A stretch of DNA of 64,000 bases, from positions 18,972,001 to 19,036,000 of the forward strand of contig OZ024752.1 in assembly GCA_964016885.1 (NCBI GenBank). The letters are read 5' to 3'. This DNA is from Eledone cirrhosa (lineage: Eukaryota). The position numbers and the translations under genes are program-made. The notes below the pieces were generated by a model. It saw nothing but the letters and a program-made list of their open reading frames with translations. It did not search any database and was not told the origin of the DNA. The stretch's first letter is position 1. Each line of letters starts with the position of its first letter. Below are positions 12,377 to 58,998 of the stretch, in pieces.

Positions 12377-15300
12377 TTTCGTTTCTGAATTTGTTTAGCA
12401 AGATTCTTTACCTGAAATCGTGTGTTGAAACCGATATTGTTATACTTTGGGAGGGTCATGTTGCCAATAAGAAACACATGCACCAGTTGCTTTCACTTCA
12501 ATTTATTATATATTTATAAATTCATAAATTTACAAATCTACAAACTTATAAATTATAAATTTCTGGTTGGTTGGTTGGTTCCACAACCAGATAGTTGTTT
12601 ATATATATTGTCACAGTCCTTTCGTCACACACTCTGTGACCTCTTCGGTGACTGGGGATTCCTTTCTTCGTTTCTGTGCCTTTTCTTTCTTCTATCCTAC
12701 GCCATTTTGTTTCTGTGTGTGTGTTGTGTGCTCAGTTTGCGCATGTGCCACATCCGGGTGTCTGTGTGTGTTTGTGTTCATTTTTCTATTTGTTTATTTA
12801 TTTATTGTTGGTTGGTTGTTTGTTCTATGTGTGTGTGTGTTTTCATTCTGTCCTGTGTGTGTTTTCATTTTGTGTGTGTTTTCAATTGTAAGTTGTTTGT
12901 TCTATGTGTGTGTGTGTTTTCATTTTGTCCTTAATTGTAAGTTGTGATGTTGCTGTTCCACTCATATTTTCTATTTAATTTTGGTTTTAATTCTTTTATG
13001 CTTACTGCCTCTGTAATTTGCCTAAACATTGCGTCTTTTCTGTGCGTAGATTCTATTTTTATTTCTATGCTCTCTAATCTACCCCTGTGTTCTATCTTAG
13101 CATGTTGGTAGAGCACAGATGATTCTTTATTATCTTGGAGGTCTCGCCAGTGTTCATTTATTCGTTCCCTTATACTACGAGCTGTCTCACCTATGTACAC
13201 TATATTTTTGTTTCTACATTGTCCTTCAGTACATCTTATGCTATACACTACATTTCTAGTTTTACAGTTAATATGGGGGCTTATTTTACAGGTTATACAT
13301 TTCTTATCTATACATGAGGGTCTTTGGAACGGGTATGTCTTGCTAATAAGTGTTTTTACGGAGGTACCAGGTCTTTCTACTATCTTAATATTGAGATTAT
13401 GTTTATTTAGGGCCCTTCTAAATTTGTAGGCTAGTTCGCCTCTAGGGGTTGTATTGATGAACATTACACTCTGGTATCTATTGCTATCATACCATGAGTT
13501 TATTCTATTGGCCTTGTTCCTAGTTCTTTCTATTCTATTCCAAAATTTGCTCCTATACAAGGGGCAGGTCCCATTTATGTCATTATTTACCATTTTTTCC
13601 CATTTGGTTCTGGCTCCTTTATACACTCTGATTCTATCTCTCTGATTGTAGCCAGAGAACTGCATACGGTGGATGAAGTGTTGTATGTGTCTCTCTAGTT
13701 CTTCGGGGTTGCACATGCGGGACACATTTCTCATCACCCGTACCAAATCCGCAATCAGTATGTTGATTTTGGTATGGTCCGAAATGGCCGAGTTTCGGTG
13801 GATCAGATGTTTGGAAGTCATGGGTTTGGCATAATGGGAATGGAGGATTTGTTTTTGGTTGTTAATGGTATCTAACCAGAGCTCTGTGTCTAGTACAGGT
13901 AATCGATGGTTGGGGTGTCTACTTGGGTAGTCTATAGTAACTCTAATGCTCTGGTGGATGGAGTTTGCTATTTGCTGGATGCTTTCCATTGTCTTTTTCT
14001 CTAGTTCGTAGAAATGATCAGCGTAGAAATGATCAGCGAGAGCAAGGTTGAGTTCCGTGGGATTGATACCAGTGAGCTGGGACTTCTACTTAAGCTTACC
14101 CATAGTAATAGTTACCTAGACACTTATGACCTTAGCAACCTGTGCCCTACAAGACCAGCAAGAGGCAGACCACCTACCATTACCTCAATGGCCAAGAAAA
14201 CCCACACAGATAGATGGAACGGGTGGACCAGAGCCATACGGACACCGAAAACCACGATGAACTGAAGAAAATGATTGCACATGCGGTAGGGGCCAGCATA
14301 AAATTAACCCTTAAGGAACATATGTTCAAATTTAATGGTAAAACATATGCCCAAGAGGAAGGAGCAGCCATTGGTGTTAGCATTGCAGGCGACATAGCTA
14401 ACTTATTCATGGTATGGTGGGACAGTAGACTTAAACAAAAACTTAATGAACAATTAGAAGACAGCTTAACCCTGATAATGTACTCCCGCTACGTAGATGA
14501 TATAAACATCGTAGTTAAGACACCCCCACTAAAGAACAGTCAGGAACTAGAGAAAAAGACAATGGAAAGCATCCAGCAAATAGCAAACTCCATCCACCAG
14601 AGCATTAGAGTTACTATAGACTACCCAAGTAGACACCCCAACCATCGATTACCTGTACTAGACACAGAGCTCTGGTTAGATACCATTAACAACCAAAAAC
14701 AAATCCTCCATTCCCATTATGCCAAACCCATGACTTCCAAACATCTGATCCACCGAAACTCGGCCATTTCGGACCATACCAAAATCAACATACTGATTGC
14801 GGATTTGGTACGGGTGATGAGAATGTGTCCCGCATGTGCAACCCCGAAGAACTAGAGAGACACATACAACACTTCATCCACCGTATGCAGTTCTCTGGCT
14901 ACAATCAGAGAGATAGAATCAGAGTGTATAAAGGAGCCAGAACCAAATGGGAAAAAATGGTAAATAATGACATAAATGGGACCTGCCCCTTGTATAGGAG
15001 CAAATTTTGAATAGAATAGAAAGAACTAGGAACAAGGCCAATAGAATAAACTCATGGTATGATAGCAATAAATACCAGAGTGTAATGTTCATCATACAAC
15101 CCCTAGAGGCGAACTAGCCTACAAATTTAGAAGGGCCCTAAATAAACATAATCTCAATATTAAGATAGTAGAAAGACCTGGTACCTCCGTAAAAACACTT
15201 ATTAGCAAGACATACCCGTTCCAAAGACCCTCATGTATAGATAAGAAATGTATAACCTGTAAAATAAGCCCCCATATTAACTGTAAAACTAGAAATGTAG

Positions 15301-16035
15301 TGTATAGCATAAGATGTACTGAAGGACAATGTAGAAACAAAAATATAGTGTACATAGGTGAGACAGCTCGTAGTATAGGGGAACGAATAAATGAACACTG
15401 GCGAGACCTCCAAGATAATAAAGAATCATCTGTGCTCTACCAACATGCTAAGATAGAACACAGGGGTAGGAGCATAGAAATAAAAATAGAATCTACGCAC
15501 AGAAAAGACGCAATGTTTAGGCAAATTACAGAGGCAGTAAGCATAAAAGAATTAAAACCAAAATTAAATAGAAAATATGAGTGGAACAGCAACATCACAA
15601 CTTACAATTAAGGACAAAATGAAGACACACACACACATAGAACAAACAACTTACAATTGAAAACACACACAAAATGAAAACACACACAGGACAAAATGAA
15701 AACACACACACACATAGAATGAACACAAACACACACAGACACCCGGATGTGGCACATGCGCAAATAACACACACACAGAAACAAAATGGCGTAGGATAGA
15801 AGAAAGAAAAGGCACAGAAACGAAGAAAGGAATCCCCAGTCACTGAAGAGGTCACAGAGTGTGTGACGAAAGGACTATGACTATATATATAAACAACTAT
15901 CTGGTTGTGGAACCAACCAACCAACCAGAAATTTATAATTTATAAGTTTGTAGATTTGTAAATTTATGAATTTATAAATATATAATAAATTGAAGTGAAA
16001 GCAACTGGTGCGTGTGTTTCTTATTGGCAACATGA
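12377..16035. mobile_element. Penelope-like element inserted as an inverted (tail-out) pair: minus arm ~14006 to 12377, plus arm ~14007 to 16035
   Basis: The minus ORF 12931-13989 (thumb + GIY-YIG) mirrors the frameshifted plus ORFs 14014-15611 ([14 protein letters not shown]). The terminal repeats are inverted and both ends sit in (TA)n. Confidence 0.92.
15838..15882 (+). ncRNA. Minimal type I hammerhead ribozyme motif in PLE terminal repeat
   Basis: agtca-CTGAAGA-g-gtcaca(gagtg)tgtgac-GAAA-ggac-TA^tgact; stem I is agtca/tgact. The mirror copy near 12610-12654 has core substitutions. Confidence 0.75.
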
Positions 16036-16123
16036 CCCTCCCAAAGTATAACAATATATATATATTATTATATATATATATATTATTATATATATATATA
16101 TATTATTATATATATATATATAT

Positions 16124-16165
<42 letters not shown>

Positions 16166-16324
16166 ATATATATATATATATATATATTATTATTATATAT
16201 ATATATATATATATATTATTATATATATATATATATATATATTATTATATATATATATATATATATTATTATTATATATATATATATATATATATTATTA
16301 TATATATATATATATATATATTAT

Positions 16325-16356
<32 letters not shown>

Positions 16357-16419
16357 ATATATATATATTATTATATATATATATATATATATATATTATT
16401 ATATATATATATATATTAT

Positions 16420-16450
<31 letters not shown>

Positions 16451-16473
16451 ATATATATATATATATATATTAT

Positions 16474-16504
<31 letters not shown>

Positions 16505-16525
16505 ATATATATATATATATATTAT

Positions 16526-16556
<31 letters not shown>

Positions 16557-16635
16557 ATATATATATATATATATATTATTATATATATATATTATTATAT
16601 ATATATATTATGATATATATATATTATTATATATA

Positions 16636-16840: not shown

Positions 16841-18143
16841 CATCATCATCATCATCATCAGCGTTTAACGTCCGTGTTCCACGCTTGCATGGGTTTGGAC
16901 GGGGGTAGTCCCACTTGAGGCAAGAGTGATTGTCTTGCTCGCATAGGACTGTCTGGCAGGTTTTCTACAGTTGGATGCCCTTCCTAACACCAACCACATT
17001 TACAGTGTGGGTCTGGGAGGTTTTTACCGTGTTGCCTACACGGCCACATTACAGCGTGGACTGTGTGTTTTTTTGTCGTGACACCTACACGATCTCATTT
17101 GTTTCGGCCTCGATGGCGCGGCACCAACATAACTTTACATAGAACGGGGTGGTGTGGATCGGGTGGGGGTGGTGGGACGGGGTGTATTTGTTAGAGATGC
17201 CTACTGGCTGGAGTAGGTTTTACTATATATTTAGGTAAGGCGGGGTCTTCTCTGTTACTGAGTACCGCCAAAGGTCTCGGTCCAGTGACATTGTCTTGGA
17301 GAGGTGTAAGTGTGTGATGTCGGAGTTTATCAGCTCGTCCCAGGTTTTTCTAGGTCTGCCTATTCCGTGACTACCGTCTATCTTTATTGCCCTGCACTTT
17401 GTTATACAGCTATCGACTTTCATGCGCATCACGTGTCCATACCAACGTAGCCTTCTCTCGAGTAAACAACATCTGATCCCTCTTATCTCTAATTTATTCC
17501 TTAGTTCGTTTATGCTTTGCCGTTCACGTATATTACTGTTACACATCCAGCGGAGCATGCAAGCTTCGTTCCTCTCTAGTCTGCGTATATCCTCTGCACA
17601 CAATGCCCAGGTCTCACTGCCATGCAGCATTGCTGTTCGTATGCAGGCATCGTACAACCTGCCTTTCATTTTTAGTGAGAACCCTTTAGCAGCTAATAGT
17701 GGTATAAGCTCTCTGAACTTTTTCCAACCAGTTCTGACTCTAGCTACAGTACTTTCAGAGCACCCTCCCCCACTGCTGATTTTATCGCCCAGGTAACGGA
17801 AGCTGTCCACTATTTCTATAGAACCCTCTGCGCAATTGAAAGAGCTAGTAGTTTGTGGGCACTTGCTGCTACTTATTGCACCAGAGCACCGGCCACATGT
17901 AAAATCTATGTTCTTAGTTAGCCTACCTGTGATCCCACTACATCTTTTATGCACCCATACTTTGCATTTAGGACATAAAATGGAGTTTCTACCTACGCCT
18001 TTCCTACACACCGAGCACGACCATTTCCCAGAAGGGACCGCCGCCTTGTTTTCTTTCCTACAAACTAGTACTTTGGTCTTAGCCAGGTTAATTTTAAGTC
18101 CTTTTGACTCTAGGCCGTGCTTCCATGTTTGGAATTTCTTCTC
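16841..18143 (-). mobile_element. RTE LINE subfamily A, second 5'-truncated copy
   Basis: Near-identical to 3178-4455 and open from EKKFQTW through the PHD finger to VTEKT. A small insertion lies near 17208-17236; the copy is truncated into the TA array 18144-18620. Confidence 0.92.
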
Positions 18144-18204
18144 TATATATATATTATTATATATATATATATTATATATATACATATATACATATATTAT
18201 TATA

Positions 18205-20826: not shown

Positions 20827-20894
20827 TATTAAATATGTTATGATGCAACACTAACTCTTTGTTCCTTTCTTCTTATACTATATATATATATATA

Positions 20895-21260
20895 AATAGG
20901 AAAAAGTATGACCCCGACGGCAGAGCTCAAGCCGTTTCGACGGCTATTTCTGGACTAAATTAGAATTTTTAGCTTTGTGAATAAATAGCCGAACTTGTCA
21001 AGGGGGTCCTTCCTTATATGGGAAGATTGTAGTTGTCAAGAGGATTGGTTAAAATTTGTTGTAAACACAAATAAGTCTATCATGGGTCGGCTATTTATTC
21101 ACCAGGCTAAAAATTCTAATTTAGTCCAGAAATAGCCGTCGAAACGGCTTGAGCTCTGCCGTCGGGGTCATACATTTTCCTATTTCCCACTCTACTACTC
21201 TAAGTATTGAGTACTCTGGTGCGTTATGGTCCATCTGGTTCCTTACCACATTTCCTTTGT
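20895..21260. mobile_element. Inverted-repeat element (~100 bp arms at 20895-20991 and 21087-21185) with one-sided 3' extension; probably a PLE terminus pair
   Basis: aaataggaaaaagtatgaccccgacggc... mirrors ...gccgtcggggtcatacattttcctattt. The extension contains actctaagtattgagt; both flanks are (TA)n. Confidence 0.65.
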
Positions 21261-21537
21261 TATATATATATATATATGCAAGTAGTTCTATAACGGTTAA
21301 CCATTGCCGAGGACAAATGTAAGGTGAAACAATTCTAAACTTATCCCATGGACTGAGTGATCTACATCTTTTGTTCAGACCCTTGCATGCTAAAGGTAGA
21401 ATTTTGTTGTTTCTTTCTGCTGATTCTATGCTAGACTTTCCTTTAAATGTCCCTTTTATTTCATATATTCACATGGCTATAATAATCATTACTGGCTGTG
21501 TATTTTGTAATTTATAATCCAGATGTAGGTACTTTTC

Positions 21538-22123: not shown

Positions 22124-22510
22124 ATATAATATAATATATATTTATATAAATATCTATTTATATATATCTATAATATATATATATATATATATAAAATATT
22201 TATTTTTTCACTTCATCTTAAAAGTTTTGCTAATACAACAACCTATCGCTTAGGGCTTTCTCTTTCGCTTTCTCTTTTCTCCTCTTTCTCTCTTTCTCTT
22301 TTCTTGTTTTCTTATTTTCCTCTTAAAGCTGCTTTTTTCTTTTTTCTCTTTCCCTCTCTCCATACCCCAACGGCTTATTTTAAATATCCGACACTAATTT
22401 GCATAATAGTATAAATAAATTTATAACCCCACTATCCGGGAGCTTCCAACAGAAATGGTCGCATTCTTTAAGGGTATGTCACTATTTATTTATAAAACTG
22501 ATCTATATTA

Positions 22511-22575
22511 TATTTTATCTGATGAAAGCACACCATAATTTAACTTGGTGTCCTTGAAATATGTACAATGAAATA
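22511..22575 (+). ncRNA. Type I hammerhead motif in the 5' pLTR (cleavage triplet mutated from ATA to ACA)
   Basis: tattttat-CTGATGA-aagcacacca...tggtgtcctt-GAAA-tatgtACA-atgaaata. Confidence 0.65.
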
Positions 22576-22755
22576 AATATGGTTTTATAAATATAGTTTC
22601 CATTTGTTAATATATCGTATTTTTACTCCAATAATTTGTTGAGTGCTTTATTTCAGTTATAAAAATATTTGCTTGTTGTATCCCAACAATTTAAATAGAA
22701 CTTCTACATATATTCTGCTCCTTTATTGTCGAGCGCTTTATATTATAACTGAAAA

Positions 22756-24931
22756 ATGGAATTCTTTAAGATCTCTTCTTCTCTAAAGGACATACCTTTA
22801 CCTAGGAATAAAGACTTTATTAAACAATTAATAGAAAAATCAGACTCTTTTATAAGAAGAATCAGGTGGCGTGCTTTCCACTTCGATAAATCTGATGTAA
22901 ATGAGAATGTTTCCAATCTTGATAAAATCTTCAAATCTAAAAAAAATCCACCCCCCAACAAACTACTAATGAATGGATTTTGAAAGTGAAATCATATCTA
23001 TTATCCAAAGCATCAAATTCAAAAAGGCCAGGATTACCTAAGAAATATCAAAAATAATATTGAAAACTTGGAGAAAACAGAAAAAATTCTAGTCAAGTCA
23101 GACAAAACCAATAATCTTTACGGAATACAAAAGGACATCTATAACGATCTTATATTAAAGGAATTAAGGAAGAAATACAAAATAACAACTTATGACGACC
23201 TTGAAAAATTGAATACAGATGCCTCTTATATAATGCATGAATTAGGCATTGAAAATAGGACACAACCCTTCATGCCAAGGAAACCTAAAATGAATATGAA
23301 GGACCATAAAAGGAACTTTGAAACTGAATTACCAGTCAGATTAATTGCACCATCTAAATTTGACCTTGGCATACTTAGCAAGAATATTTTAGACAGAATA
23401 ATACCACAAATTAAAGAATTATCTTATTTAAAATTATGGAAAGGAACTAATGAAGTTATCGAATGGTTTAAGGAAATTAAATATAACTACAATAATAAGT
23501 TTATTCAATTGGATATTGCTAATTATTACTCATCCATCACTCCTAATCTACTTAACAAAGCACTAACATATGCATTTAAATATACAGACTTAACTAGTAA
23601 TGAAATGCACATTATCTTAACGGCACGGAAAACATTAATATAATTTAACAACCAACTCTGGACTAGAGCAGATAGAAAGAATAATTTCGATATCACTATG
23701 GGATCATCCGATTCCGCTCAGGTAACGGATCTTGTGGGCCTCTTTATAAATAATTCTCTACATAGAAAAATACCTGAGATGACCGGAAGTTTATATCGTG
23801 ACGACATGCTTTTACTTATCGAAAATAATAACTGTGAATTAAATAGGAAAAGAAAAGAAATTATACAATTTTTTAATTACCTTAATCTAAAAGTAGAAAT
23901 AGAGAATAACCATAAAATAGTTAATTTTCTAGATTAAACCTTAACACATGTCTTCATTATCCTTTTCACAAACTAAACGAGAACTTAAACTACGTTAATT
24001 TTAACTCTAATCACCCCAGATCCGTTAAAAATACTATAGTGAATTCTGTACAGCAATGCATTTCTAGAATTTCAGCTAATAGGAATATATTTGATGATAA
24101 AGCACATTATTACAACAAAGCGTTAGGTAGAGCTGGATATAGAAATAAAATTAAATACATTGATAATAATAATATAACAACTAACCATAATCCTAACAAT
24201 TTTAACAACTATAATAGAAAACCTTACAATAATTCGGAAAACAAAAAAAGAAATAGAACTAGGAATATATTATGGTTCGCTCCTCCTTTCTCATTAAATA
24301 TTAAAAATCCTATTGCTAAACTATTTTTTAAAGCTCTTGACAAATGCTTCCCTAGAACACAGATATTACTCAATTTTTAATAGACATACTATAAAATTAA
24401 CTTATTCATCCACCAAAAATTTACCGCAGAATATTAATAGAATTAATAATAGAAATTTAAAACCTAACCAAAATACCAATAATAACCCCAGCAATATCCA
24501 ATTTGATAAATGTAACTGTAGAAATAAATCTAATTGCCCGTTAAATAACAATTGCTTAGCTAAAAATATAGTATATAATTGTAATGTAATAACTAATTTA
24601 AATTCATTTAATTATGTAGGATCTACTTCCACAGATTTTAAATCTCGTTTTAATAACCATAAAAGCTCTTTTACGCATTTAAACAAAATAATCTTCAACT
24701 TCTCTATCTAGCTTATGGGACCTCAAATTAAAGAACGTTAAATATTCGTTACTTTGGAATATTATTTCAAAAGCTACTCCTTTTAATTCCTCTTCAGAAA
24801 ATTGTGATCTTTGTATAGAGGAAATATTCTTTATATTAAAAAGCAAAAATTCCCTAAATGTAAGAAGCAATCTATTCAGTTGCTGCAGACATAGATTGAA
24901 CTCAACGTTTAAATATAAATTTAAAACGTAA
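22756..24931 (+). pseudogene. PLE RT-GIY-YIG polyprotein with stops and frameshifts
   Basis: Collinear ORF fragments 22756-22983, 23068-23643, 23698-23937, 24039-24380 and 24313-24711, plus a final frame ending at TAA 24929-24931. Confidence 0.88.
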
Positions 24932-25947
24932 TATATAATTAATTCTATTAATATATTGAACCTATCGATAAATCATTAGATTCCTTCATTTGACTGCTTA
25001 AACTCTCAAATATAAAAATCTTTTCATAGAAAATTTTTCTAGATAAACATACCGAAAGCTCTTAAAAGGTGAACATATTTTTTTTGAAAATTTCTCTTTC
25101 TTTTTCTTTGAAAATTTGTTTGTATTATAACATAAGGTTTCTATAATCTTAAATTTCCTTTGTTATCTTGACATTTATAACATTTAATATAGGTAAATAA
25201 CTTAATTTCCTTCACGCTGTTTTGCTATTACATAGAAATGTTTTTCTCCGGGTTTTTTTCTCTGGTTTCTCAGAAAAATATATAAATTTAAGAAAATTCC
25301 TATATCTTATACATAAAAAGTCCTTTATCTATGTGTATGGTATGTGTAGGTATGTATATATATATATTTATATGTATGTGTGCGTACGTATATATATGAA
25401 TATATTCTTTTAATAATATATGGGTTTTAATAATATATAGATTTTTAATAATGTATATATCTCAACTTTTAATGTATAGATCTCAATAATTTGATGGATA
25501 ATTTAATTGATAAACTAAACATTTAATCATATTTAAACAGTGGTTAAAATTAATTTTCCATTCACGCTTATTTACTTATTTACTTGACTCATCCAAAAAT
25601 ATTTATTTTTTCACTTCATCTTAAAAGTTATGCTAATACAACAACCTATCGCTTAGGGCTTTCTCTTTCGCTTTCTCTTTTCTTTTTTTCTTCTCTTTCT
25701 CTCTTTCTCTTTTTCTTGTTTTCTTATTTTCCTCTTAAAGCTGCTTTTTTATTTTTTGTTTTTTCTCTTTCCCTCTCTCCATACCTCAACAGCTTATTTT
25801 AAATCTACTGTGATTTAAAAATATCCGACACTAATTTGCATTATAGTATAAATAAATTTATAACCCCACTATCCAGGAGCTTCCAACAGAAATGGTCGCA
25901 TTCTTTAAGGGTATGTCAATATTTATTTATAAAACTGATCTATATTA

Positions 25948-26012
25948 TATTTTATCTGATGAAAGCACACCATAATTTAACTTGGTGTCCTTGAAATATG
26001 TATAATGAAATA
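25948..26012 (+). ncRNA. Type I hammerhead ribozyme motif in the 3' pLTR
   Basis: Stem I tattttat/atgaaata, CTGATGA, stem II, GAAA, near-palindromic stem III atatgtat; predicted cleavage after A26004. Confidence 0.78.
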
Positions 26013-26138
26013 AATATGGTTTTATAAATATAGTTTCCATTTGTTAATATATCGTATTTTTACTCCAATAATTTGTTGAGTGCTTTATATCAGTTATAAA
26101 AATATTTGCTTGTTGTATCCCAACAATTTAAATAGAAC

Positions 26139-26177
<39 letters not shown>

Positions 26178-27998
26178 AATGAAAAATGGCGTGCTGTGTT
26201 GTTGCAAATGTGATATACAAATTAAAATGAAGAATTAGAAATAGAAGCTAGGACTATCCATCATCAGTGGTCTACTAGCGATCATAAGTATTTCTTCGCA
26301 TTAAAGACCAGATATCTCAGGCTAGCGCGAACAATAACTAAAATAAGTTATTGGGATAAAAAGAATTGGGTGATATCACCCAAATATATATATATATATA
26401 TATATATATCACCCAAATCGGTGAACCCATACGTACATATATATATGTGTGCATGTATGTATGTATATACATACTACTGTACGTCTGTATACATATATGT
26501 ATGTATGCATACATACTTATATTTAAACGCGTTATTACTCACATGTCGCATCCTTTCGACATTCAGAAAAAAGATTTACAACAGCTCTGGCTAGCAGAAT
26601 TTGGGATTTGAAAGACCAAGGCATCCAATATAAATTAGATTGGTCAATTTTGAACCAATCTAAAGAATATGCAAGAGGAACAAGAAAATGCACGCTCTGC
26701 ATAAATGAAAAATATTGGATATTGCAAAATCTAAAATCACCAAAGACCTGCCTGAACACAAAGACGGAAATTTTCACCAGTTGCCCACACATGAAATCAC
26801 ACCTGCTTTCCAACTCATATAAACTTAACACACTTTCAAATACTTATCCTCCATAAACTCTTATTATTCTCTTTATAATTACCCTTTCTGATTTACTTTC
26901 ATTTTTATCCTTATCATTAATTTCATTTATTTTAATTTTAATTTTTATTTTTATTTTTATTTTTATTTTTATTTATATTTTTATATATTTTTTTTATTTT
27001 TACTTCACCCCCTCCCCCTTTATTCTCCGATTCACTTACCTAATATCTTCACTTTCCATTTTTTACTTCCCTATTTCCTTCACTAACTGATTACAGACGT
27101 CATTTGCGTTTTCCACTCCAGATATATTTTTTATTTTTATTTTTATTTTTTATTTTTGTGCAGCCAATCTTACAATTTTATAATTTTATATTTGTACTTA
27201 TCCACAAGTTTTTTACACCCTGTATCAATGTGGCTGAACGCCTTAATGTGTGTATACTTTCTATATATGTACATGAGCGACTACGTATGTGCGCGTGCGT
27301 GCGTGTATATATATATATATGTATGTGTATGTGTATGTGTCTTTATATCCGTGTTTTTACATCTAGGTTTTATGTTTTGTTCCTTTTTTCTTCTCCCCCC
27401 CTTTTTTACATCATCATTTTTATGCGTGTGCATGCAAACAGGTCAATATGCGTGAGTGTAAGTATGTGTGTGTGTGTGTACGTATCGAACGTATGGATGT
27501 GTAAGTGTGCGTGTGTATATAAGAATGTATATTTTTGTGGTTTTTTTGTGAGATATACGTGTGTGTGTATGTATGTACCTTGTTTGTCTTCTTTTCTTTA
27601 ATTTTTTCTTTCTAAATTATTGTTCCATTTTTATAAATATATCGAGATTGATACTTTTCCTTTAATTATTACACTCCCTTACCTCTTTTACTTCCGCATC
27701 TAAGTGTACGTGTGTGTAGGTGTATTTATGCGCGTGCCTTCATATTCTTATGATGTATCTATTCTGTCTGTAGATTACAGATACACAGATACATTTGCCC
27801 TAAATTATATATTTACGCACACTTTTTCACTATACGTATACATATGTGCATACACATATATGCACATCTGTGAACGTATATACATACATATACACACACC
27901 TAACTATATTTCTTGAAAGATTATTATATATTTCATATTCTAATTCATTTGTCTATATCTTTTTTGTTTTTTTGCTTTTCTTGATGAGACTTTCCAAG

Positions 27999-28581
27999 TA
28001 TTGTTATACTTTGGGAGGGTCATGTTGCCAATAAGAAACACACGCACCAGTTGCTTTCACTTAAATTTATTATAATAAATTTATAATAAATTTATAAATT
28101 TCTGGTTGGTTGGTTGGTTCCACAACCAGATAGTTGTTTATATATAGTCATAGTTCTTTCGTCACACACTCTGTGACCTCTTCAGTGACTGGGGATTCCT
28201 TTCTTTGTTTCTGTGCCTCTCCTTTGTTCTGTCCTACGCCATTTTGTTTTGTTTCTGTGTGTGTGTTCACAGAAACAAAATGGCGTAGGACAGAACAAAG
28301 GAGAGGCACAGAAACAAAGAAAGGAATCCCCAGTCACTGAAGAGGTCACAGAGTGTGTGACGAAAGAACTATGACTATATATAAACAACTATCTGGTTGT
28401 GGAACCAACCAACCAACCAGAAATTTATAAATTTATTATAAATTTATTATAATAAATTGAAGTGAAAGCAACTGGTGCGTGTGTTTCTTATTGGCAACAT
28501 GACCCTCCCAAAGTATAACAATATCGGTTTCAACACACGATTTCAGATAAAGAATCTTGCTAAACAAATTCAGAAACGAAA
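27999..28581. mobile_element. Inverted pair of PLE terminal repeats (same family as 12377-16035) with target-site duplication
   Basis: Arms are 27999-~28268 and ~28268-28523, with an extension at 28524-28581. The direct repeat actttccaagtatt occurs at 27989-28002 and 28581-28594. Hammerhead motifs lie at 28146-28190 (-) and 28332-28376 (+). Confidence 0.88.
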
Positions 28582-28608
28582 CTTTCCAAGTATTTACCCA
28601 TGTTTTAT

Positions 28609-28686
28609 ATTGCCTCGTCTGACGAACGAATGAAGACGTTTCTTTCGTATTTGCCTCATTCGGGAAACCTCTGGTAATGAGGTAAT
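28609..28686 (+). ncRNA. Type I hammerhead ribozyme motif (best formed in the window)
   Basis: Stem I attgcctcgt/atgaggtaat (10 bp including G-U), CTGACGA, stem II cgaatga/tcattcg, GAAA, stem III acc(tct)ggt, GUA cleavage after A28676. Confidence 0.82.
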
Positions 28687-28786
28687 TATATTGTATTGAT
28701 TTTTATACATTAAATTTTGCTCTGATACTTACATAGCGCACTCTTCACTTCTATGACCTTTTCTGTTTTCAACGGAAATTTCAATA

Positions 28787-28825
<39 letters not shown>

Positions 28826-28827
<2 letters not shown>

Positions 28828-29169
28828 ACTTAGAGTTTACACTCAATGGGGTCATTTACAATCATTTCAGCTCTAAGAATCGTTTCTGAGCAGAATAAAT
28901 TAATATTTGATGAACATTTACATGTTTTAGTTGCAATTGACTAATAAAATCGTTAGAATGAAATATCTTAATTCAAATACATATAGTTTGTCTGTACGAT
29001 CTAAAAAATAATAAATCAATACTCACAAACTCATATGAGTTTGTGAGTATTGATTTATTATTTTTTAGATCGTACAGACAAACTATATGTATTTGAATTA
29101 AGATATTTCATTCTAACGATTTTATTAGTCAATTGCAACTAAAACATGTAAATGTTCATCAAATATTAA
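28826..29169. mobile_element. Spacer-less palindrome (~135 bp arms, centre 29034/29035) with one-sided extension 28826-28898; probably PLE termini
   Basis: ...actcacaaactcat|atgagtttgtgagt... The arms mirror from ttaatatttgatg to catcaaatattaa; flanks are (TA)n. Confidence 0.7.
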
Positions 29170-47126: not shown

Positions 47127-47287
47127 AATAGGTTACTACCTAGTTTTTGTCTACTAAATTCTACCTACAAGCAGGACTGAATTTATCAGGGGGTGGTGGG
47201 GGCAAATGCCTACACCCTCTGAACAGGGCCTCTTTATCCTTCTCTCTCTCTGTCTCTCTTCCAGCTTATGTATTTCTATGTATATAT

Positions 47288-48477
47288 CATCATCATCATT
47301 TTATGTCCGCTTTTCCCTGCTTGCAAGGGTGGGACGGGTCCAATTCAGCACAGCATCTCTCCACTTATCACGGTCCTTCGTCATCTCCGTGAGCTTCAGC
47401 AATCTGAGGTCTGCTCTTACCACCTCCGCCCATGTTTTTCGTGGTCTTTATCTACTGCATCTTCCTTCAACTGGCATTTCTTGGCATTTCTTTACCCAGC
47501 GGTCATCCTCCATGCGCATCACATGTCCATACCATCTCAGTCTTCTCTCCTGCACACTACAATTTATCCCTCTTATACTCAATTTCTCTCTCAACTCGTC
47601 TATGCTTAGTCATTCATGCATATTGACATTGCACATCCATCGGAGCAAGCTTGCTTCATTTCTCTTCAGCTGTCACATATCCTCTGCAGTTGCTGCCCAT
47701 GTCTCACTACCATGCAGCATCGTGCATCTCACACAGGCATCATATAACCGGCCTTTCGTATGCAGGGAGAAACCCTTCTTTGTTAACAGAGAGAGCAGCT
47801 CCTAAACTTCTTCCAACCCGTCCTTATTCTAGATACTATGGCCTCGGAACACCCCTCTCCCATGCTAATCTGATCATCTAGGTACCGGAACCGGAAGCTA
47901 TCAACCACTTCTATAACCCCCACCTGCATTTGAAAAATGTGTCTATCACTGCGACTTCTGTCAAATTTCCCTGTACATCTATTGCATAACTATTCTCCCT
48001 ACCTGTTAGTTTGCCTGCTATCTCACTACATCTCTTGTGTACCCAACATCTACATTGTGTACATTTTATAGAATTTATGCCAGTTCCTTTTCTGCATATC
48101 GAACATGGCCATTTCCCTGACGGAATCAGAGTTTTGTCCTCTTTTCTACTCATCAACATGTTTGTCTTAGCTACGTTCACTCTCAGTCCTCTTGATTCCA
48201 ACTGCTGTTTCCATAGCCAGAATTTATTCTCTAGCTCCTCTACTGATTCTGCTATAAGAACCAAATCGTCAGAAGTTCCCATGGACAGCCAGTCTTAAAC
48301 TCATCTGTTATGGTTTGGAGGACTATAATGAACAAGAGCGGGCTGAGGACCGAACCCTGATGTACTCCTACTTGTATCTGGAATTCCTCACTAAACTCCA
48401 TTCCTACTCTCACTTTACTGACAGCACCTCTGTACAAAGCTTGCACTGTCCTCACAAGCCATTCCTCTACACCTAGG
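47288..48477 (-). mobile_element. RTE LINE subfamily C, 5'-truncated and frameshifted
   Basis: GVHQGSVLSPLLF, GCPWELL, DDLVLIAES and the PHD segment WPCSICRKG..CTQCRCWVHKRCS; 3' end cgtcccacccttgcaagcagggaaaagcggac then (GAT)n. Confidence 0.87.
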
Positions 48478-51196: not shown

Positions 51197-51836
51197 TCAT
51201 ACCTGTTCTATGCCATACCTCTTCTATGCCATACCTCTTCTATGCCATACCTCTTCTATGCCATACCTGTTCTATACCATACCTGTTCTATGCCATACCT
51301 GTTCTATGCCATACCTGTTCTATGCCATACCTGTTCTATGCCATACCTCTTCTATGCCATACCTCTTCTATGCCATACCTCTTCTATGCCATACCTGTTC
51401 TATGCCATACCTGTTCTATGCCATACTTGTTCTGTCATACCTGTTCTATGCCATACCTGTTCTATGCCATACCTGTTCTATACCATACCTGTTCTATGCC
51501 ATACCTGTTCTATACCATACCTGTTCTATGCCATACCTGTTCTATGCCATACTTGTTCTGTCATACTTGTTCTATGCCATACCTGTTCTATACCGTACCT
51601 GTTCTATACCGTACCTGTTCTATGCCATACCTGTTCTATACCATACCTGTTCTATGTCATACTTGTTCTATGCCATACCTGTTCTATGTCATACCTGTTC
51701 TATGCCATACTTGTTCTATGTCATACTTGTTCTATGCCATACCTGTTCTATGCCATACCTGTTCTATACCATACCTGTTCTATGTCATACTTGTTCTATG
51801 CCATACCTGTTCTATGTCATACCTGTTCTATGCCAT
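51197..51836. repeat. 16-bp minisatellite ccatacctgttctatg
   Basis: About 40 tandem units. Confidence 0.95.
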
Positions 51837-52217
51837 AGTGGTGTCGGTGGTGGTGGTGTCGGTGTTGGTGGTGGTGTCGGTAATGGTGTTGGTGGTGGCG
51901 TTGGTATGGTGGTGGTGGTAGTGGTGTCAGCAGTGGTGGTGTAGGTAGTGATGGTTGTGTAGGTAGTGTGCTAGTGGTGGTGGTCGTCGTGTTGGTAGTG
52001 GTGGTGGTGGTGTTGGTGGTTGTTGTATTAGTAGTGGTGGTGGTGTCGGTTGTGTTGGTAGTGGTGGTGGTGGTGTCGATGGTGGTGGTGGTGGTGGTAG
52101 TGGTGGTGTCGGTGGTGGTAGTGGTGGTGTCGGTAGTGTCAGTGGTGGTGGTGGTGATGTCGGTGTTGGTGTTGGTGGTCGTGTTGGTGGTGGTGGTGAT
52201 TGTGTTGGTAGTGGTGG

Positions 52218-54220
52218 TGTTGGTGACATGACAAAACACACCCAGTCCACCCTGTAAAGTGGTTGTGTTGGTGACATGACAAAACACACCAGTCCACCCT
52301 GAAAGTGGTTGTGTTGGTGACATGACAAAACACACCAGTCCACCCTGAAAGTGGTTGTGTTGGTGACATGACAAAACACACCAGTCCACCCTGAAAGTGG
52401 TTGTGTTGGTGACATGACAAAACACACCAGTCCACCCTGAAAGTGGTTGTGTTGGTGACATGACAAAACACACCAGTCCACCCTGAAAGTGGTTGTGTTG
52501 GTGACATGACAAAACACACCAGTCCACCCTGAAAGTGGTTGTGTTGGTGACATGACAAAACACACCAGTCCACCCTGAAAGTGGTTGTGTTGGTGACATG
52601 ACAAAACACACCAGTCCACCCTGAAAGTGGTTGTGTTGGTGACATGACAAAACACACCAGTCCACCCTGAAAGTGGTTGTGTTGGTGACATGACAAAATG
52701 CACCCAGTCCTCTCTGTAAAGTGGTTATGTTGGTGACATGACAAAATGCACCCAGTCCTCCCTGTAAAGTGGTTGTGTTGGTGACATGACAAAACACACC
52801 CAGTCCACCCTGTAAAGTGGTCGTATTGGTGACATGACAAAACACACCCAGTCCACCCTGTAAAGTGGTTGTGTTGGTGACATGACAAAACACACCCAGT
52901 CCTCACTGTAAAGGGGTTGTGTTGGTGACATGATAAAACACACCCAGTCCACCCTGTAAAGTGGTTGTGTTGGTGACATGACAAAACACACCCAGTCCAC
53001 CCTGAAAGTGGTTGTGTTGGTGACATGACAAAACACACCCAGTCCACACTGTAAAGGGGTTGTGTTGGTGACATGACAAAACACACCCAGTCCACCCTGT
53101 AAAGTGGTTGTGTTGGTGACATGACAAAACACACCCAGTCCACCCTGTAAAGTGGTTGTGTTGGTGACATGACAAAACACACCCAGTCCACCCTGTAAAG
53201 TGGTTGTGTTGGTGACATGACAAAACACACCCAGTCCACCCTGTAAAGTGGTTGTGTTGGTGACATGACAAAACACACCCAGTCCACCCTGAAAGTGGTT
53301 GTGTTGGTGACATGACAAAACACACCCAGTCCACACTGTAAAGGGGTTGTGTTGGTGACATGACAAAACACACCCAGTCCACCCTGAAAGTGGTTGTGTT
53401 GGTGACATGACAAAACACACCCAGTCCTCACTGTAAAGGGGTTGTGTTGGTGACATGACAAAACACACCCAGTCCACCCTGTAAAGTGGTCGTATTGGTG
53501 ACATGACAAAACACACCCAGTCCACCCTGAAAGTGGTTGTGTTGGTGACATGACAAAACACACCAGTCCACCCTGAAAGTGGTTGTGTTGGTGACATGAC
53601 AAAACACACCCAGTCCACCCTGTAAAGTGGTTGTGTTGGTGACATGACAAAACACACCCAGTCCACCCTGAAAGTGGTTGTGTTGGTGACATGACAAAAC
53701 ACACCCAGTCCACACTGTAAAGGGGTTGTGTTGGTGACATGACAAAACACACCCAGTCCACCCTGAAAGTGGTTGTGTTGGTGACATGACAAAACACACC
53801 CAGTCCTCACTGTAAAGGGGTTGTGTTGGTGACATGACAAAACACACCCAGTCCACACTGTAAAGGGATTGTGTTGGTGACATGACAAAACACACCCAGT
53901 CCACCCTGTAAAGTGGTTGTGTTGGTGACATGACAAAACAGACCCTGTCTTCATTGTAAAGTGGTTGTTTTGTTGCCACAATAAAAAGTACCCACTCTAC
54001 CCTGTCAAATGGTCATGTTGGTGACATGTCAAAAAGCACCCAGTCCACCCTGTAAATGTGGTTGGCATTAGGAGGAGCATCCAGCTGTAGAAACCAAGCG
54101 AGAAACAGTTCTGTATGAGCAAGACATGGTCATCTGATCTGATTTGTCTCACAACAAGACAACTTGTCCAACCCATGCTAGCATGGAAAAATGGATGTTA
54201 AACTGTGATGTTGATGATGA
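52218..54220 (+). repeat. 46-48-bp minisatellite (roughly 38 units) continuing into an RTE-B-type 3' tail
   Basis: Unit gtgttggtgacatgacaaaacacacccagtccaccctgtaaagtggtt; from about 54050 it continues as ggttggcattaggaggagcatccagctgtagaaacc...acccatgctagcatggaaaaatggatg(GAT)n. Confidence 0.92.
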
Positions 54221-54777: not shown

Positions 54778-55050
54778 TACAATATTAAATAAATGGAAAA
54801 CTATATTTATAAAACCATATTTATTTCATTATATATATTTCGGGGATATCATATTAACAATATGCTATGCCTTCATCATATTGTTAATATGATATCCCCG
54901 AAATATATATAATGAAATAAATATGGTTTTATAAATATAGTTTTCCATTTATTTAATATTGTAAATATACTCCAAGTATTTGTCGAGTGCTTTTATATCA
55001 GTTATAAATATTTACTAGTTGTAACCCAACAATTTTAAATATAACTTTAC
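54778..55050. mobile_element. Inverted pair of short PLE terminal fragments (related to the 22193-26140 pLTR) with one-sided extension
   Basis: Arms are 54778-54864 and 54877-54963; both are truncated inside the hammerhead. The extension reads aatatactccaagtatttgtcgagtgc...cccaacaatttt. Confidence 0.8.
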
Positions 55051-55629: not shown

Positions 55630-56056
55630 ATAATTGTTTCCACTTTTGGCACAAGGCCAGCAATTTTTCCTCCAGTGTATTACTGGTACTTTATTTTATT
55701 GACCCTGTAAGGATGAAAGGCAAAGCTAATCTTTGTGGGATTTGAACTCAGAATGTAAAAGGCCATAACTCTATGCTGCAAAGCATGGTGTTCGATGCTC
55801 TGCTGATACTGCCAATCCACTGCTTTTTTCATTAAATAATGTTTCTTATATAGGCACAAGGCCAGCAATTTTTGGGGAGGGGAAAGTCGATTTAATCGAC
55901 CCCAGTGCGTGACTGGTACTTTATTTTATCGACCCCGTAAAGATGAAAGGTAAAGTTAACCTCGGCGGGATTTGAACTCAGATCATAAAGGGCTGTAACT
56001 CTATGCTGCAAAGCATGGTGTCCAACTCCCTACCGATACTGCCAATCCACCGCCCT
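55630..56056 (-). mobile_element. Two tandem family 1 SINEs
   Basis: Copies at about 55630-55820 and 55836-56056. Confidence 0.82.
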
Positions 56057-56719
56057 GTCTCAATTTTAGTCTCTTAGTAGAGCGTCTAGCAAGAAAAGAT
56101 TTTAAAAAAACATACAAAAATGTAGCCATTGGTTACTGCTCCATCCTCTCAGGTCTCGAATAATCTTCTCCCTCCTCGCCACTTATTGATTATTCAGGAC
56201 CCCCCCCCCCCCTCCCTCTCCTCTTATTCCAGCCTCCTGATTATTAAATTTTGCTAATCTATCTTTGGCGAAATTTTATTTTAATCGTAGCATTCCTGCA
56301 ACAATTGATTTTCTGTAGACATTAAAAAACATTATGCATGACAATATAAGTACATTACTAGAAATCCCATATGTTATAAAATAGGATGGGTTGGGGTCTC
56401 AATATGTAAACTAAATGACTAATCCTGGTTTTTAAAAAAATCAAAGGAGACAACCTAGAAAAATTACTGATTTTCCAACCCCATTGTTATTCCAACACCC
56501 CTATTATTTGGACCTGAGACTACATTTTGATGTTTAAATCCCACCAAGGTGAACTTTGCTTTTTATCCTTCTCGAGTCAATAAAATACTATAGCAGTCAA
56601 ATACTGGGGTTGATATAATCAACTTTTCCTCTCTGTCTAAAGCACTGCACTTAAAACCTATTATTATATAATCTTTCTCTCTCCTCTTTCTCCACTGCTC
56701 TCTCTCCTATGTCCCTCCT

Positions 56720-56982
56720 ATGCAGGAACACAAACCAACTCAACTGTAAACTAGGAGTGGCATCTATTTTTCAACTAAGTCATAAGTACTAATATAATTG
56801 TTTCTACTTTTGGCAGAAAGCCAGCAATTACCCCAGTGCATTACTGGTACTTTATTTTATCGACTCCGTAAGGATGAAAGGCAAAGTTAACCTCGGCGGG
56901 ATTTGAACTCAGAATGGCAAGGGCCGTAACTCTATGCATCAAAGCATGGCATCCGACCCTCTACCGATACTGCCAACCCACC
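56720..56982 (-). mobile_element. SINE family 1 variant with the same 3' extension as 29240-29473
   Basis: Shared flank and diagnostic variants ggcagaaag and gaatggcaagggcc. Confidence 0.8.
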
Positions 56983-57446
56983 AATAATAATGGTTTCTAA
57001 TTTAGGCATAAAGCCAACAATTTGAAGAGAGGGGAAAGTCAATTAACCCCAGTTCGTTACTGCCAATCCACAGCCCTTCTTCACTAACACTCTAATAAGT
57101 TATCTTCTGTCCAAATTATCTTACTCTCCAATCCATTATGATACTGACAGACACTTAATGTATTTGACATTTCACCTACTGTACAGCGCTGATTGTCTAT
57201 ATTTCCCCTGTGAAACAACTCATAAACCTTTCAACAATTATTTTGTAGCCTACAACAGGATAGATACTTGTATCATCATCATCATTATCATCATTTCTTG
57301 CATGATCGATGTATTTATTTTGTCATCTTTATCTATGGTATTCCCCCTCCCTCTCTCTCTCTAACTATCTATGATATCCCCCTCTATCTCTATATATATA
57401 TACACACACCTATCTATGGCTCTCTTTCTCTGTATATATATATATA

Positions 57447-57935
57447 AATTAGTTTTGCAAGGTTTTTATATGAAATCGTGTGTCGAAACAAATATTGTTA
57501 TACTTGGAGAGGACCATATTGTTACAATATTGCCAGAAATAATAACAGAACACACTCACTGTTTGGTTGGTTTTCGCTTCTGTATCTTTTATATCTCCAT
57601 AGTTAATTTATTTGGCAATCAACGTTTATCATTGACTGACCAGCCGTTAAAAATACAGATATAAATATATATATATATAATCTATGAAAGTTCTTTTGTT
57701 GCACATCTGCAACATCATCAGTGGTACTATTATGTTCCCTCCTATTGTATTGTAATGTCTACATCAGTTTTATTTTATTTATTTATTTATTTAATTATTT
57801 CTTCTTGTCTCCGTCTCTGCGCATGCGTTTGCGTGTGTGTATAGTGTTTGGTGTATGTGTTCGCGTTTGAGTGTATGTGTTTTTGTTTTTGTATTCTATC
57901 TTTGTTCACTAGTGTGTGTTTATATGTGTTTGTTG
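57447..57935 (-). mobile_element. PLE terminal repeat fragment related to the 6905-8847 family, carrying the 3' extension
   Basis: The reverse complement matches 8420-8847 (cgcaaacgcatgcgca, gcgaaaaccaac.aaacagtgagtgtgttctgtta) plus an extension similar to 12377-12434. Confidence 0.75.
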
Positions 57936-58111
57936 TTATTGTACTTCGAACTTGGATTGCCTAATAAAAGTAACCTTCTTATGTAAGGAGCTGTCTGGTG
58001 AGATCATGGCACTGTGTTTAACATGGAATACGTGGCTTCTATTGTCATTGAAATATATATACTGGCCTTTCAATAAAGCAGTTTTAACATCTAAACTACT
58101 TTATATTTCAT

Positions 58112-58160
<49 letters not shown>

Positions 58161-58163
<3 letters not shown>

Positions 58164-58998
58164 AATATATTAACAAATGGAAACTGTATTTATAAAACCA
58201 TATTTATTTCATTATACATATTTCAAGGCCCACCAAGGCAGATTATGGTGCACTTTCATCAGATAAAATATAATACAGATTAGTTTTATAAATAAATATT
58301 GACATACCCTAAAAAAATGCAACCTTACCGGTTGGAGCTTCCTGGATAGTGGAGATATTAGATTTATTGTTGATTTAGTATGAAAATTAGTGTCGGAAAG
58401 GTTTAAATAACAGTATATTTAAATTAAACCGTTGGAAGAGGGAAAAAAGAAAGAGAAAATGAATAGTTTATATATATTTTTTGCCAGTGGGAGAGAGTAA
58501 ACGTGACTATATTTAAGTGAGAGAGAATATTAGTTATAAGGACTATAATAGCGTAATTTTGTTTACGTGAGAGGAAAGAAGAAACGAAGAAACAAATATA
58601 GCATGGATAAATAATAGCAGGATTCATTATAATGATAGGTTGAAAAACTTTATCTAAGGTTTAATTAATAAATTTGATTAAATGTTTAATTAATAATTTA
58701 ATAGTTTAATCGTTTATATCTCCACTATCCAGGAAGCTCCAACCGGTAAGGTTGCATTTTTTCAGGGTATGTCAATATTTATTTATAAAACTAATCTGTA
58801 TTATATTTTATCTGATGAACACCATAATCTACCTTGTGGCCCTTGAAATATGTATAATGAAATAAATATGGTTTTATAAATATAGTTTCCATTTGTTAAT
58901 AAGTTGTATATTTACTCCAATAATTTGTTGAGTGCTTTATATCAGTTATAAAAATATTTTAGCTTGTTGTATCCCAACAAATTAAATATAACCTCTGC
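58161..58998. mobile_element. Inverted pair of PLE terminal repeats (22193-26140-related family); hammerhead motifs at 58205-58270 (-) and 58804-58864 (+)
   Basis: The minus arm runs ~58715 to 58161 and the plus arm ~58716 to 58998, with extension tatttactccaataatttgttgagtgc. Confidence 0.83.

What the first reader, a model, noticed from the sequence alone, without database searches (positions are those of the whole stretch)
12377..58998. Six inverted PLE-type insertions share a fixed asymmetric end, pointing to two defined priming sites
Seen: at 12377-16035, 20895-21260, 27999-28581, 28826-29169, 54778-55050 and 58161-58998, one arm carries a 55-90 nt 3' extension and the other stops at a family-specific point: ...tataacaata at 16035, 27999 and the solo copy ending 8847; ...ttgta at 54778 and 58161. 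In four cases the stop lies 5-12 nt before an RCTC-loop-GAGY hairpin (actctaagtattgagt 21197; gctcagaaacgattcttagagc 28869-28890 minus; actccaagtatttgtcgagt 54969; actccaataatttgttgagt 58914). A similar motif follows the hammerhead at 28719. The inner breakpoints vary. Known: inverted pLTRs with a one-sided tail are a PLE hallmark, and as I recall internal RT initiation has been shown for a vertebrate Poseidon element. Inference: one target strand primes at a precise internal site set by the hairpin and the other primes near the RNA 3' end. A hairpin signal shared across families is, to my knowledge, not described.
Basis: partly seen in the sequence, partly recalled or inferred. Interest (0 to 1): 0.78.

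Follow-up and report, generated by a model that had tools for sequence, protein, structure and literature searches.

The report
Twin RNA hairpins mark Penelope ends
A widespread group of animal jumping genes (Hydra-type Penelope-like elements) carries two copies of a small conserved hairpin sequence, one just past each of the two fixed points where inserted copies end, which likely tells the enzyme where to start copying and would explain the lopsided back-to-back insertions typical of this class.

Summary
Confirmed and extended. The six insertions are real head-to-head Penelope-like (PLE) copies, each with one short end (S) and one long end (L). In a position-ordered sample 39 of 39 intact pairs are S+L; in similarity-ranked loci 100 of 103. 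The two arms share private variants. Four of the six belong to families that carry the hairpin; two of those families have Hydra-clade ORFs. The hairpin occurs twice, 1-5 nt past S and again past L, so L is not simply an RNA 3' end. It is a GCUC/GAGC stem with a 2-nt bulge, a covarying upper stem and a 3' RCUYU. It occurs in 33 of 34 distinct metagenomic Hydra 5' regions, and it predicted both ends of a family found through it (84 of 98 ends). The other two insertions (Neptune/Nematis-type) lack it. Likely mechanism: two RT subunits dock on the hairpins of one RNA and prime from opposite target strands. The tail and two internal starts are published, and this scan saw the asymmetry before in other genomes; the twin motif was not found in print.

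The parts
12377..14006 (-). Family A (Neptune/Nematis-type PLE) long arm: ORF C-terminus, 3' UTR, 58-nt tail 12377-12434
14060..16056 (+). Family A short arm, ends at S (16056, not 16035)
6905..8847 (+). Solo 5'-truncated relative of family A (about 70% DNA identity), S-type end
20894..21086 (-). Family B (Hydra clade) short arm; inner boundary approximate
21087..21262 (+). Family B long arm with tail
21189..21217 (+). Family B hairpin 1 with 3' RCUYU, 5 nt after S
22196..26146 (+).
22519..22575 (+). Type I hammerhead motif in the 5' pLTR of D'
   Evidence: (pattern match) and sequence
22625..22649 (+). D' hairpin 1, just 3' of S
22717..22739 (+). D' hairpin 2, just 3' of L and 16 nt before the ATG
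27999..28267 (-). Family A short arm
28268..28581 (+). Family A long arm with tail
27989..28002 (+). 14-bp target-site duplication, left copy (right copy 28581-28594); overlaps both element ends by 2-4 nt
28582..28790 (+). Family E pLTR end (host of the A insertion): hammerhead at 28619, decayed hairpin 1 at 28719-28744, L end near 28790
28826..29034 (-). Family C (ORF-less, about 565-nt tandem unit) long arm; hairpin 1 at 28891-28870
29035..29169 (+). Family C short arm (perfect palindrome with 28900-29034); ends about 5 nt before the usual S
54778..54870 (-). Family D (Hydra clade) short arm; inner boundary approximate
54871..55050 (+). Family D long arm; hairpin 1 at 54969-54993
58161..58712 (-). 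Family D short arm, inserted in (CT)n; inner boundary approximate
58713..58998 (+). Family D long arm; hammerhead at 58812, hairpin 1 at 58914-58938

Best explanation
Hydra-clade Penelope-like elements carry two copies of a bulged hairpin sequence, one just 3' of each of their two fixed insertion ends, and these likely act in the RNA as docking sites that place two reverse transcriptase subunits, which would prime from the two nicked target strands on one template. Shown: the order hammerhead - S - hairpin 1 - L - hairpin 2 - ATG; ends 1-5 nt before each hairpin; tail length equal to hairpin spacing; a near-strict S+L rule; both arms from one source; a 14-bp target duplication in one Neptune/Nematis-type case. 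Inferred: the GIY-YIG domain nicks both strands of an AT-rich site with a stagger; each 3' end anneals to the 2-6 nt UA-rich stretch just before a hairpin; the RT at S copies upstream, the RT at L copies the tail and either stops on meeting the first hybrid or displaces it; the two cDNA 3' ends join at short homologies or palindromes. One finished cDNA gives a solo S- or L-ended copy; two give the inverted pLTR with a one-sided tail. L-ended arms that contain the ORF need hairpin 2 behind a whole unit, so the template would be a tandem read-through transcript or a circle. Family A likely does the same with a different, unidentified signal.
For: Hairpin after both ends in B, C, D, E and F and G. 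Family G was found through the motif alone; among its first 100 matches by position, 84 of 98 terminal ends lie 1-5 nt 5' of a hairpin and 2 copies run on. Tail length against motif spacing over six families, r = 0.99 (values read). Metagenome Hydra loci: 33 of 34 distinct 150-nt 5' regions have at least one motif and 21 have two, against 84 of 6,800 shuffles, 2 of 34 reverse strands and 6 of 378 in-ORF windows. Upper stem, not selected by the pattern: first pair Watson-Crick in 51 of 53 motifs (39 C-G, 12 U-A; permutation mean 31.6, 0 of 10,000), second 32 of 50 (13.3), third 22 of 35 (8.9), best in the 2-nt bulge register; covariation score 0.405 against 0.123, 0 of 500 shuffles, on 11 equal-length motifs. 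7 of 11 metagenomic ends lie 3-5 nt before a motif. Pair rule: 39 of 39 and 100 of 103, with S and L both common among ends (59 to 39 in G). Variants seen in only two arms belong to the two arms of one insertion in 15 of 18 (A), 20 of 21 (B) and 21 of 23 (D) cases, against 0.6-1.8 expected. In 10 of 23 G pairs whose S arm holds the probe, the L arm reaches at most 11 nt past S, so neither arm can be a copy of the other. Published support: two internal RT starts delimit the tail, both strands are cut and extended, RNA 3' of the starts is required, and a dimer is predicted (PMC11167929).
Against: No RNA run holding the stretch was laid and no biochemistry was done; the ends are read from DNA. 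Single hairpins are weak (z from -0.1 to -2.7 in 12 folds), and 2 of the 7 window copies fold in another register. The basal stem is nearly invariant (49 GCTC/GAGC, 4 TCTC/GAGA) and was demanded by the pattern; covariation on the 18 shortest motifs is weak; families are related, so counts are not independent. Family A obeys the S+L rule without the motif. Exceptions: 1 S+S (L250) and 2 L+L (L270, L306); 2 of 15 long A pairs differ at 11 and 15 subfamily-diagnostic sites. In family D short L arms are no commoner than short S arms (8 of 28 against 7 of 28 at 121 nt or less, counted), so a collision at S is only suggestive. 4 of 11 metagenomic ends lie 7-14 nt before the motif. Frangieh et al. 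saw no top/bottom difference in start site in vitro and did not test coupling. Shared private variants could also come from two RNAs of one source gene or from gene conversion.
Confidence: 0.65

Rival explanations
1. One reading: only S is set by a hairpin; L is inherited, because a source copy ending at L is transcribed into the flanking (UA)n and is primed there near the RNA 3' end. Hairpin 2 then has another role, such as binding or translation.
For: A pLTR-ORF-pLTR source ending at L has no hairpin 2 behind its 3' pLTR (window 26146). Most targets are (TA)n. Hairpin 2 always sits close to the ATG.
Against: Hairpin 2 lies 2-5 nt after L in six families with tails of 68-91 nt. L ends joined to (CT)n or (CA)n carry no templated TA run (L058, L052). 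Tandem arrays that would supply hairpin 2 exist for B, A and C.
Confidence: 0.12
2. The hairpins direct RNA cleavage or 3'-end formation at S and L; the RT then starts at ordinary RNA 3' ends, and the RNP holds one short and one long RNA from the same source.
For: DNA ends cannot tell an internal start from an RNA end. Two of 15 A pairs have arms of different subfamilies.
Against: It needs an extra rule to exclude S+S and L+L (39 of 39). In the Poseidon element starts are internal and do not move with the RNA 3' end (PMC11167929), although the same paper reports RNA-seq read ends at these sites.
Confidence: 0.1
3. One priming event followed by fold-back of the cDNA; the second end is made by the endonuclease cutting the DNA intermediate next to the motif, as in the published idea of EN-mediated resolution.
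For: Perfect or near-perfect palindromic centres are common (28900-29169; family G junctions cluster at -71 beside the hammerhead core). Arms share private variants. Craig et al. and the Adineta paper favour EN resolution and self-priming.
Against: Many pairs have arms that hardly overlap (10 of 23 G pairs; also D L052, L059, L269, L283 and C L093, L111, L292), so neither is a copy of the other. Copies with an S end and no inverted partner in the fetched stretch exist. A bulged, covarying stem is a single-strand signal.
Confidence: 0.1
4. The ends are set only by UA microhomology to the (TA)n target, or the palindromes are assembly artefacts; the hairpins are bystanders.
For: Every S and L end finishes in AT or TAT.
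Against: 7-31 TAT sites lie within about 370 nt around the ends of each family, yet two are used. The ends and the empty site appear in independent reads.
Confidence: 0.03

Closest known systems
Hydra clade of C-terminal EN+ PLEs (Craig et al. 2021, PMC8557442; section 11, passages and supplement parts 1, 2, 52, 53 read)
   Same: RWK-type and DKT motifs, CxCX5C linker, no CCHH, hammerhead, (TA)n targets. By eye, the published consensi carry the motif: two copies at the 5' end of Hydra-1_Ajap, one in the 3' ends of Hydra-2_Ajap and Hydra-2_Amil, and variants in Hydra-1_Crog; none was clear in Hydra-1_Obim or Hydra-1_Amil.
   Different: The parts read annotate only the hammerhead. No twin hairpin, no link to the ends. 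Units here are 3.3-3.5 kb and tails 68-91 nt, against 'generally <3 kb' and a 30-40 bp tail.
PAc, Poseidon element of Anolis carolinensis (Frangieh et al. 2024, PMC11167929; parts 1-2 of 4 and supplement files 1-2 read)
   Same: Two internal RT starts delimit the tail; both strands are cut and extended at AT-rich DNA; RNA 3' of the starts is needed; a dimer is predicted.
   Different: One start lies in an AC-rich stem-loop, and the sequence in Fig. S1B shows no RCUC/GAGY motif by eye. No repeated signal, no cross-family conservation and no S+L coupling are reported; priming there is described as non-homologous, whereas ends here show 2-6 nt of AT-rich match to the target.
Inverted pLTR with optional one-sided tail (PMC3846280 and PMC8557442, passages read)
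   Same: Same insertion anatomy, palindromic inner junctions, target duplications of about 10 bp.
   Different: Called optional or often one-sided and put down to self-priming or EN resolution. Here the asymmetry is counted, near-strict, and tied to two RNA motifs.
L1 twin priming
   Same: Both target strands prime on one RNA; the inverted arm is joined by microhomology.
   Different: L1 uses poly(A) plus a chance internal site and its arms do not overlap. Here both sites are fixed and the arms often overlap.

Membership tests
Hydra-clade PLE (families B, D/D', G) | N-terminal RWK-type motif | tested here: met
   RWR in B, D' and G; feature
Hydra-clade PLE (families B, D/D', G) | DKG changed to DKT | tested here: met
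   SDKT in B and D'; that region of G was not printed
Hydra-clade PLE (families B, D/D', G) | CxCX5C linker before a C-terminal GIY-YIG | tested here: met
   Present in B, D' and G
Hydra-clade PLE (families B, D/D', G) | CCHH absent; CxxC and CxH near the C-terminus | tested here: met
   One Cys between the VxY and YxG motifs; CxxC and CxH in B and G
Hydra-clade PLE (families B, D/D', G) | Canonical hammerhead in the pLTR | tested here: inconclusive
   Pattern found in D, D' and E and in most metagenome loci; not matched in the window copy of B; G core seen by eye
Hydra-clade PLE (families B, D/D', G) | Insertion into (TA)n | tested here: met
Hydra-clade PLE (families B, D/D', G) | Phylogenetic placement with the published Hydra RTs | not tested
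   No tree was built; the published sequences were only read by eye
Neptune/Nematis PLE (family A) | CX2-5CxxC linker plus CCHH in a C-terminal GIY-YIG | tested here: met
   1,318-aa ORF in L121; Neptune versus Nematis not resolved
Canonical EN+ PLE insertion unit | 5' truncation, partial tandems, inverted pLTR, one-sided tail | tested here: met
PAc-like internal initiation | cDNA starts inside the RNA at two sites that delimit the tail | not testable with these tools
   Two fixed DNA ends and run-on copies fit it; needs in vitro mapping
Twin priming on one RNA | Both arms from one template, opposite strands primed | tested here: inconclusive
   Shared private variants and S+L rule; one RNA cannot be told from two RNAs of one gene
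Non-LTR retrozyme (family C) | Type I hammerhead in each tandem unit | tested here: not met
   No hammerhead pattern in the window copy or by eye in the 565-nt unit; definition from bioRxiv 10.64898/2026.07.22.740005. C is filed as an ORF-less PLE-like unit with the Hydra motif; its partner element was not identified
Rfam RNA families | Match of the hairpin to a curated model | tested here: not met
   No hit on the motif in 6 metagenome loci or in the window

The most novel reading that the evidence does not exclude
The PLE tail and the inverted pLTR are the footprint of a programmed double start: a clade-wide, duplicated bulged hairpin loads two RT subunits on one RNA at a set distance from two alignment sites, so both target strands are primed in one RNP. 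This would be a sequence-defined start signal for a telomerase-related retrotransposon RT, conserved across many animal lineages and movable to set where copying begins.
Probability: 0.55. Interest if true: 0.85.

Novelty: new variant of a known kind. Interest (0 to 1): 0.74.

Why it matters
Craig et al. name the formation of tandem and inverted structures as an open question of PLE biology, and Frangieh et al. located two RT starts but no signal shared between elements. A short twin motif that predicts both ends turns this into a clean experiment (delete, repair or move a hairpin and map the starts). It also offers a marker for Hydra-clade boundaries and ORF-less derivatives in invertebrate genomes; one family alone has 27,770 exact matches to a 19-mer here. 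PLE RTs are the sister group of telomerase, so an RNA element that positions the RT at a fixed distance from a short alignment site bears on how templated starts evolved and on engineering insertion tools.

Tried and rejected
MAFFT alignment A2 of 71 motifs did not align the 5' strand across variable loops and was not used; equal-length subsets were used instead (11 and 18 motifs). A genome-wide end-to-motif table was contaminated by junction-derived contexts; only its per-family modes and unit scans are cited. The trimmed end histogram is blurred by subfamily differences near the ends. Collision of the L arm at S: no excess in D; in G 5 of 23 L arms stop 2-11 nt past S while 0 of 14 S arms are 91-100 nt long, a post hoc observation kept as suggestive. 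Inner-junction microhomology counts are distorted by a variant in the reference and are used only qualitatively. A conserved fold for the family A tail: weak folds (-0.5 to -5.7 kcal/mol), not kept in relatives. Hammerhead cleavage as the cause of inner hot spots: the G hot spot at -71 is at the start of the core, not at the expected cut near -30. Viral contigs held no relative. A DNA search for family G returned nothing; a pattern search worked. No RNA holder was listed. No dimer prediction was obtained. Not-in-print claim rests on searches, term look-ups in PMC8557442, PMC3846280, PMC6765202, PMC12910113, PMC4209133, PMC8969392, PMC13282606 and bioRxiv 10.64898/2026.07.22.740005 (passages, plus part 1 of 5 of the preprint), and Rfam. 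Pyatkov 2004 and Lunse 2017 were not held; Arkhipova 2006, Evgen'ev and Arkhipova 2005 and Repbase reports were not seen; Fig. S2 of Frangieh et al. is a picture, its GenBank file was unreadable, and bioRxiv supplements are closed. Any of these could mention the motif.

Full report
Setting. The window is C12:18,972,001-19,036,000 of a 3.0-Gb genome, dense in microsatellites and retroelements. The six flagged structures belong to four families: A (12377-16056 and 27999-28581), B (20894-21262), C (28826-29169) and D (54778-55050, 58161-58998). All are head-to-head with 3' ends outward.

Observation. Genome searches show two sharp 3' ends per family, S and L, separated by tails of 58, 80, 77 and 91 nt. 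The element at 27999-28581 sits in a copy of a further family E with a 14-bp duplication; another E copy has the empty site, and so do 46 raw reads of an independent run, where 2,087 reads also leave the element at S. The two best contig runs may be the source sample, and no listed record spans the palindromes themselves.

Pair rule. Of 116 head-to-head pairs in similarity-ranked loci, 13 had a truncated end and were dropped; of the other 103, 100 are S+L, 1 is S+S and 2 are L+L (exceptions viewed; one C pair, L116, is doubtful). Some of these loci were selected with tail-containing queries. A cleaner sample is the first 100 matches by position of a family G 19-mer: 46 pairs, 7 dropped for a truncated end, 39 of 39 S+L (27 G, 6 B, 5 A, 1 D). 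S and L are both common (59 and 39 ends), so independent choice would give about half.

Identity. A encodes a 1,318-aa RT with a CX4CxxC linker and CCHH GIY-YIG, that is Neptune or Nematis by the criteria of Craig et al.. B, D' and G encode proteins of about 710-720 aa where intact, with RWR, CxCX5C and no CCHH, and DKT in B and D', the Hydra clade. A full-length D' element lies in the window at about 22196-26146. C is an ORF-less 565-nt tandem unit.

The hairpin is doubled. Where a unit runs on past L, a second copy of the motif follows: D' at 22625 and 22717, B, C, E and F with a long inserted loop in copy 2. In the B and D references the motif occurs at exactly these two places on the sense strand, and in A nowhere. 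Modal distances from end to hairpin are 5 nt (36 of 40) for B-S and 3 nt (26 of 35) for B-L, and 2-3 nt for E and F. Family G was found by a motif pattern alone; 48 of 59 S-type ends lie 2-5 nt before hairpin 1 and 36 of 39 L-type ends 1-5 nt before hairpin 2. Tail length follows motif spacing (r = 0.99, six families). Every end finishes in AT or TAT shared with the target, but 7-31 TAT sites are available nearby.

Conservation and structure. 2,049 homologues of the B protein were found; an alignment of 45 retrieved 77 metagenome loci. Of 39 with 150 nt before the ORF, 34 are distinct; 33 carry the motif and 21 carry two within that span, against about 1-6% in controls. The usual order is hammerhead, motif 1, motif 2, ATG. 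The structure is a GCUC/GAGC stem, a 2-nt 3' bulge (UU 28, UC 15, UA 8, UG 2), a variable upper stem and a 3' RCUYU. The upper stem, not demanded by the pattern, covaries: 51 of 53, 32 of 50 and 22 of 35 Watson-Crick pairs against 31.6, 13.3 and 8.9 by permutation, confirmed on 11 equal-length motifs and weaker on the 18 shortest. Basal compensations are ACUC/GAGU in B and D and UCUC/GAGA in L342 and L343. Single hairpins are not unusually stable, which fits a protein-bound element better than a free fold. In these loci 7 of 11 mappable ends lie 3-5 nt before a motif, the others 7-14 nt. By eye the motif is also in four of six published Hydra consensi, from coral, sea cucumber and copepod. Rfam has no match.

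One source, two cDNAs. Paired arms share subfamily alleles and private variants (15 of 18, 20 of 21, 21 of 23 doubletons); 2 of 15 long A pairs do not. Yet in 10 of 23 G pairs the L arm reaches at most 11 nt past S while the S arm runs upstream, and D and C have like cases, so neither arm is a fold-back copy of the other. Inner breakpoints vary, with hot spots beside hammerhead or hairpin palindromes (about -71 in G, -60 in B, -190 in D).

Mechanism. Best reading (0.65): two RT subunits dock on the two hairpins of one uncleaved RNA; both target strands are nicked with a stagger; each 3' end pairs with the short UA stretch before a hairpin and is extended; the cDNA ends join. Shown are the anatomy, distances, pair rule and common source. 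Inferred are docking, the dimer, a single RNA molecule and the order of events. ORF-bearing L arms need hairpin 2 behind a whole unit, hence a tandem or circular template; tandem arrays exist for A, B and C, and circles were proposed by Cervera and de la Pena (passage). Rivals are an inherited L end (0.12), RNA processing at S and L (0.10), fold-back with EN resolution (0.10) and chance or artefact (0.03). Family A follows the rule without the motif, so the rule is more general than this signal.

Known and new. Inverted pLTRs with a one-sided tail are described, and two internal starts delimiting the tail, one in an AC-rich stem-loop, were shown for a Poseidon element. Earlier notes of this scan report the asymmetry in other genomes and judged it ordinary (unchecked AI notes). 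I found no description of the doubled bulged hairpin, its conservation across Hydra elements or its fixed distance to both ends (searches and gaps listed under Tried and rejected). Verdict: known elements and known tail, with an apparently undescribed cis-acting RNA motif that makes the origin of the tail directly testable; new variant of a known kind, interest 0.74.

Noticed in passing
L212-L213 (G000:C1:437,196,500-437,216,300) and one search list: A very young family B subfamily with dozens of equally scoring, long open-frame copies (717-aa ORF) and 3-4-copy tandem arrays of about 3.53 kb; a good source for biochemistry.
   Followed up: partly
L121-L123: Family A has tandem arrays of 4.42 kb and a 1,318-aa ORF with a long Asn/His/Thr-rich insert before the RT, like the N-rich inserts reported for Adineta PLEs; its ORF starts just upstream of S.
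   Followed up: partly
L397, L398, L402: In families E and F and a relative, hairpin 2 carries a long inserted loop of roughly 60-75 nt while keeping the basal stem, bulge and 3' RCUYU.
   Followed up: no
L392-L396: A 183-bp tandem array built from a family F-like pLTR end with both motifs, a candidate minimal non-autonomous unit.
   Followed up: no
L059, L099, L134, L274, L283, L311, L443, L466, L467, L483: Many family B mini-insertions of 191-221 bp fold at about -60 in a GC-rich palindrome; they could be mistaken for MITEs.
   Followed up: partly
window 28582-29169: Three PLE families (E, A inside E, and C) are stacked at one (TA)n tract; tail-to-tail piling in the same microsatellite is common in the fetched loci.
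   Followed up: partly
motif 3' side, for example window 22641-22649: GAGY plus the following RCUY is a near-palindrome, so the two motif copies could pair with each other or switch register; a C-A mismatch in the commonest version argues against it.
   Followed up: no
window 21-2450, 3532-5802, 17223-18150, 47158-47805: Fragments of other non-LTR retrotransposon ORFs, plus large simple-repeat and minisatellite arrays (51197-54064, 61803-64000).
   Followed up: no
whole window: The repeat landscape is recalled as octopus-like; no call identified the host.
   Followed up: no
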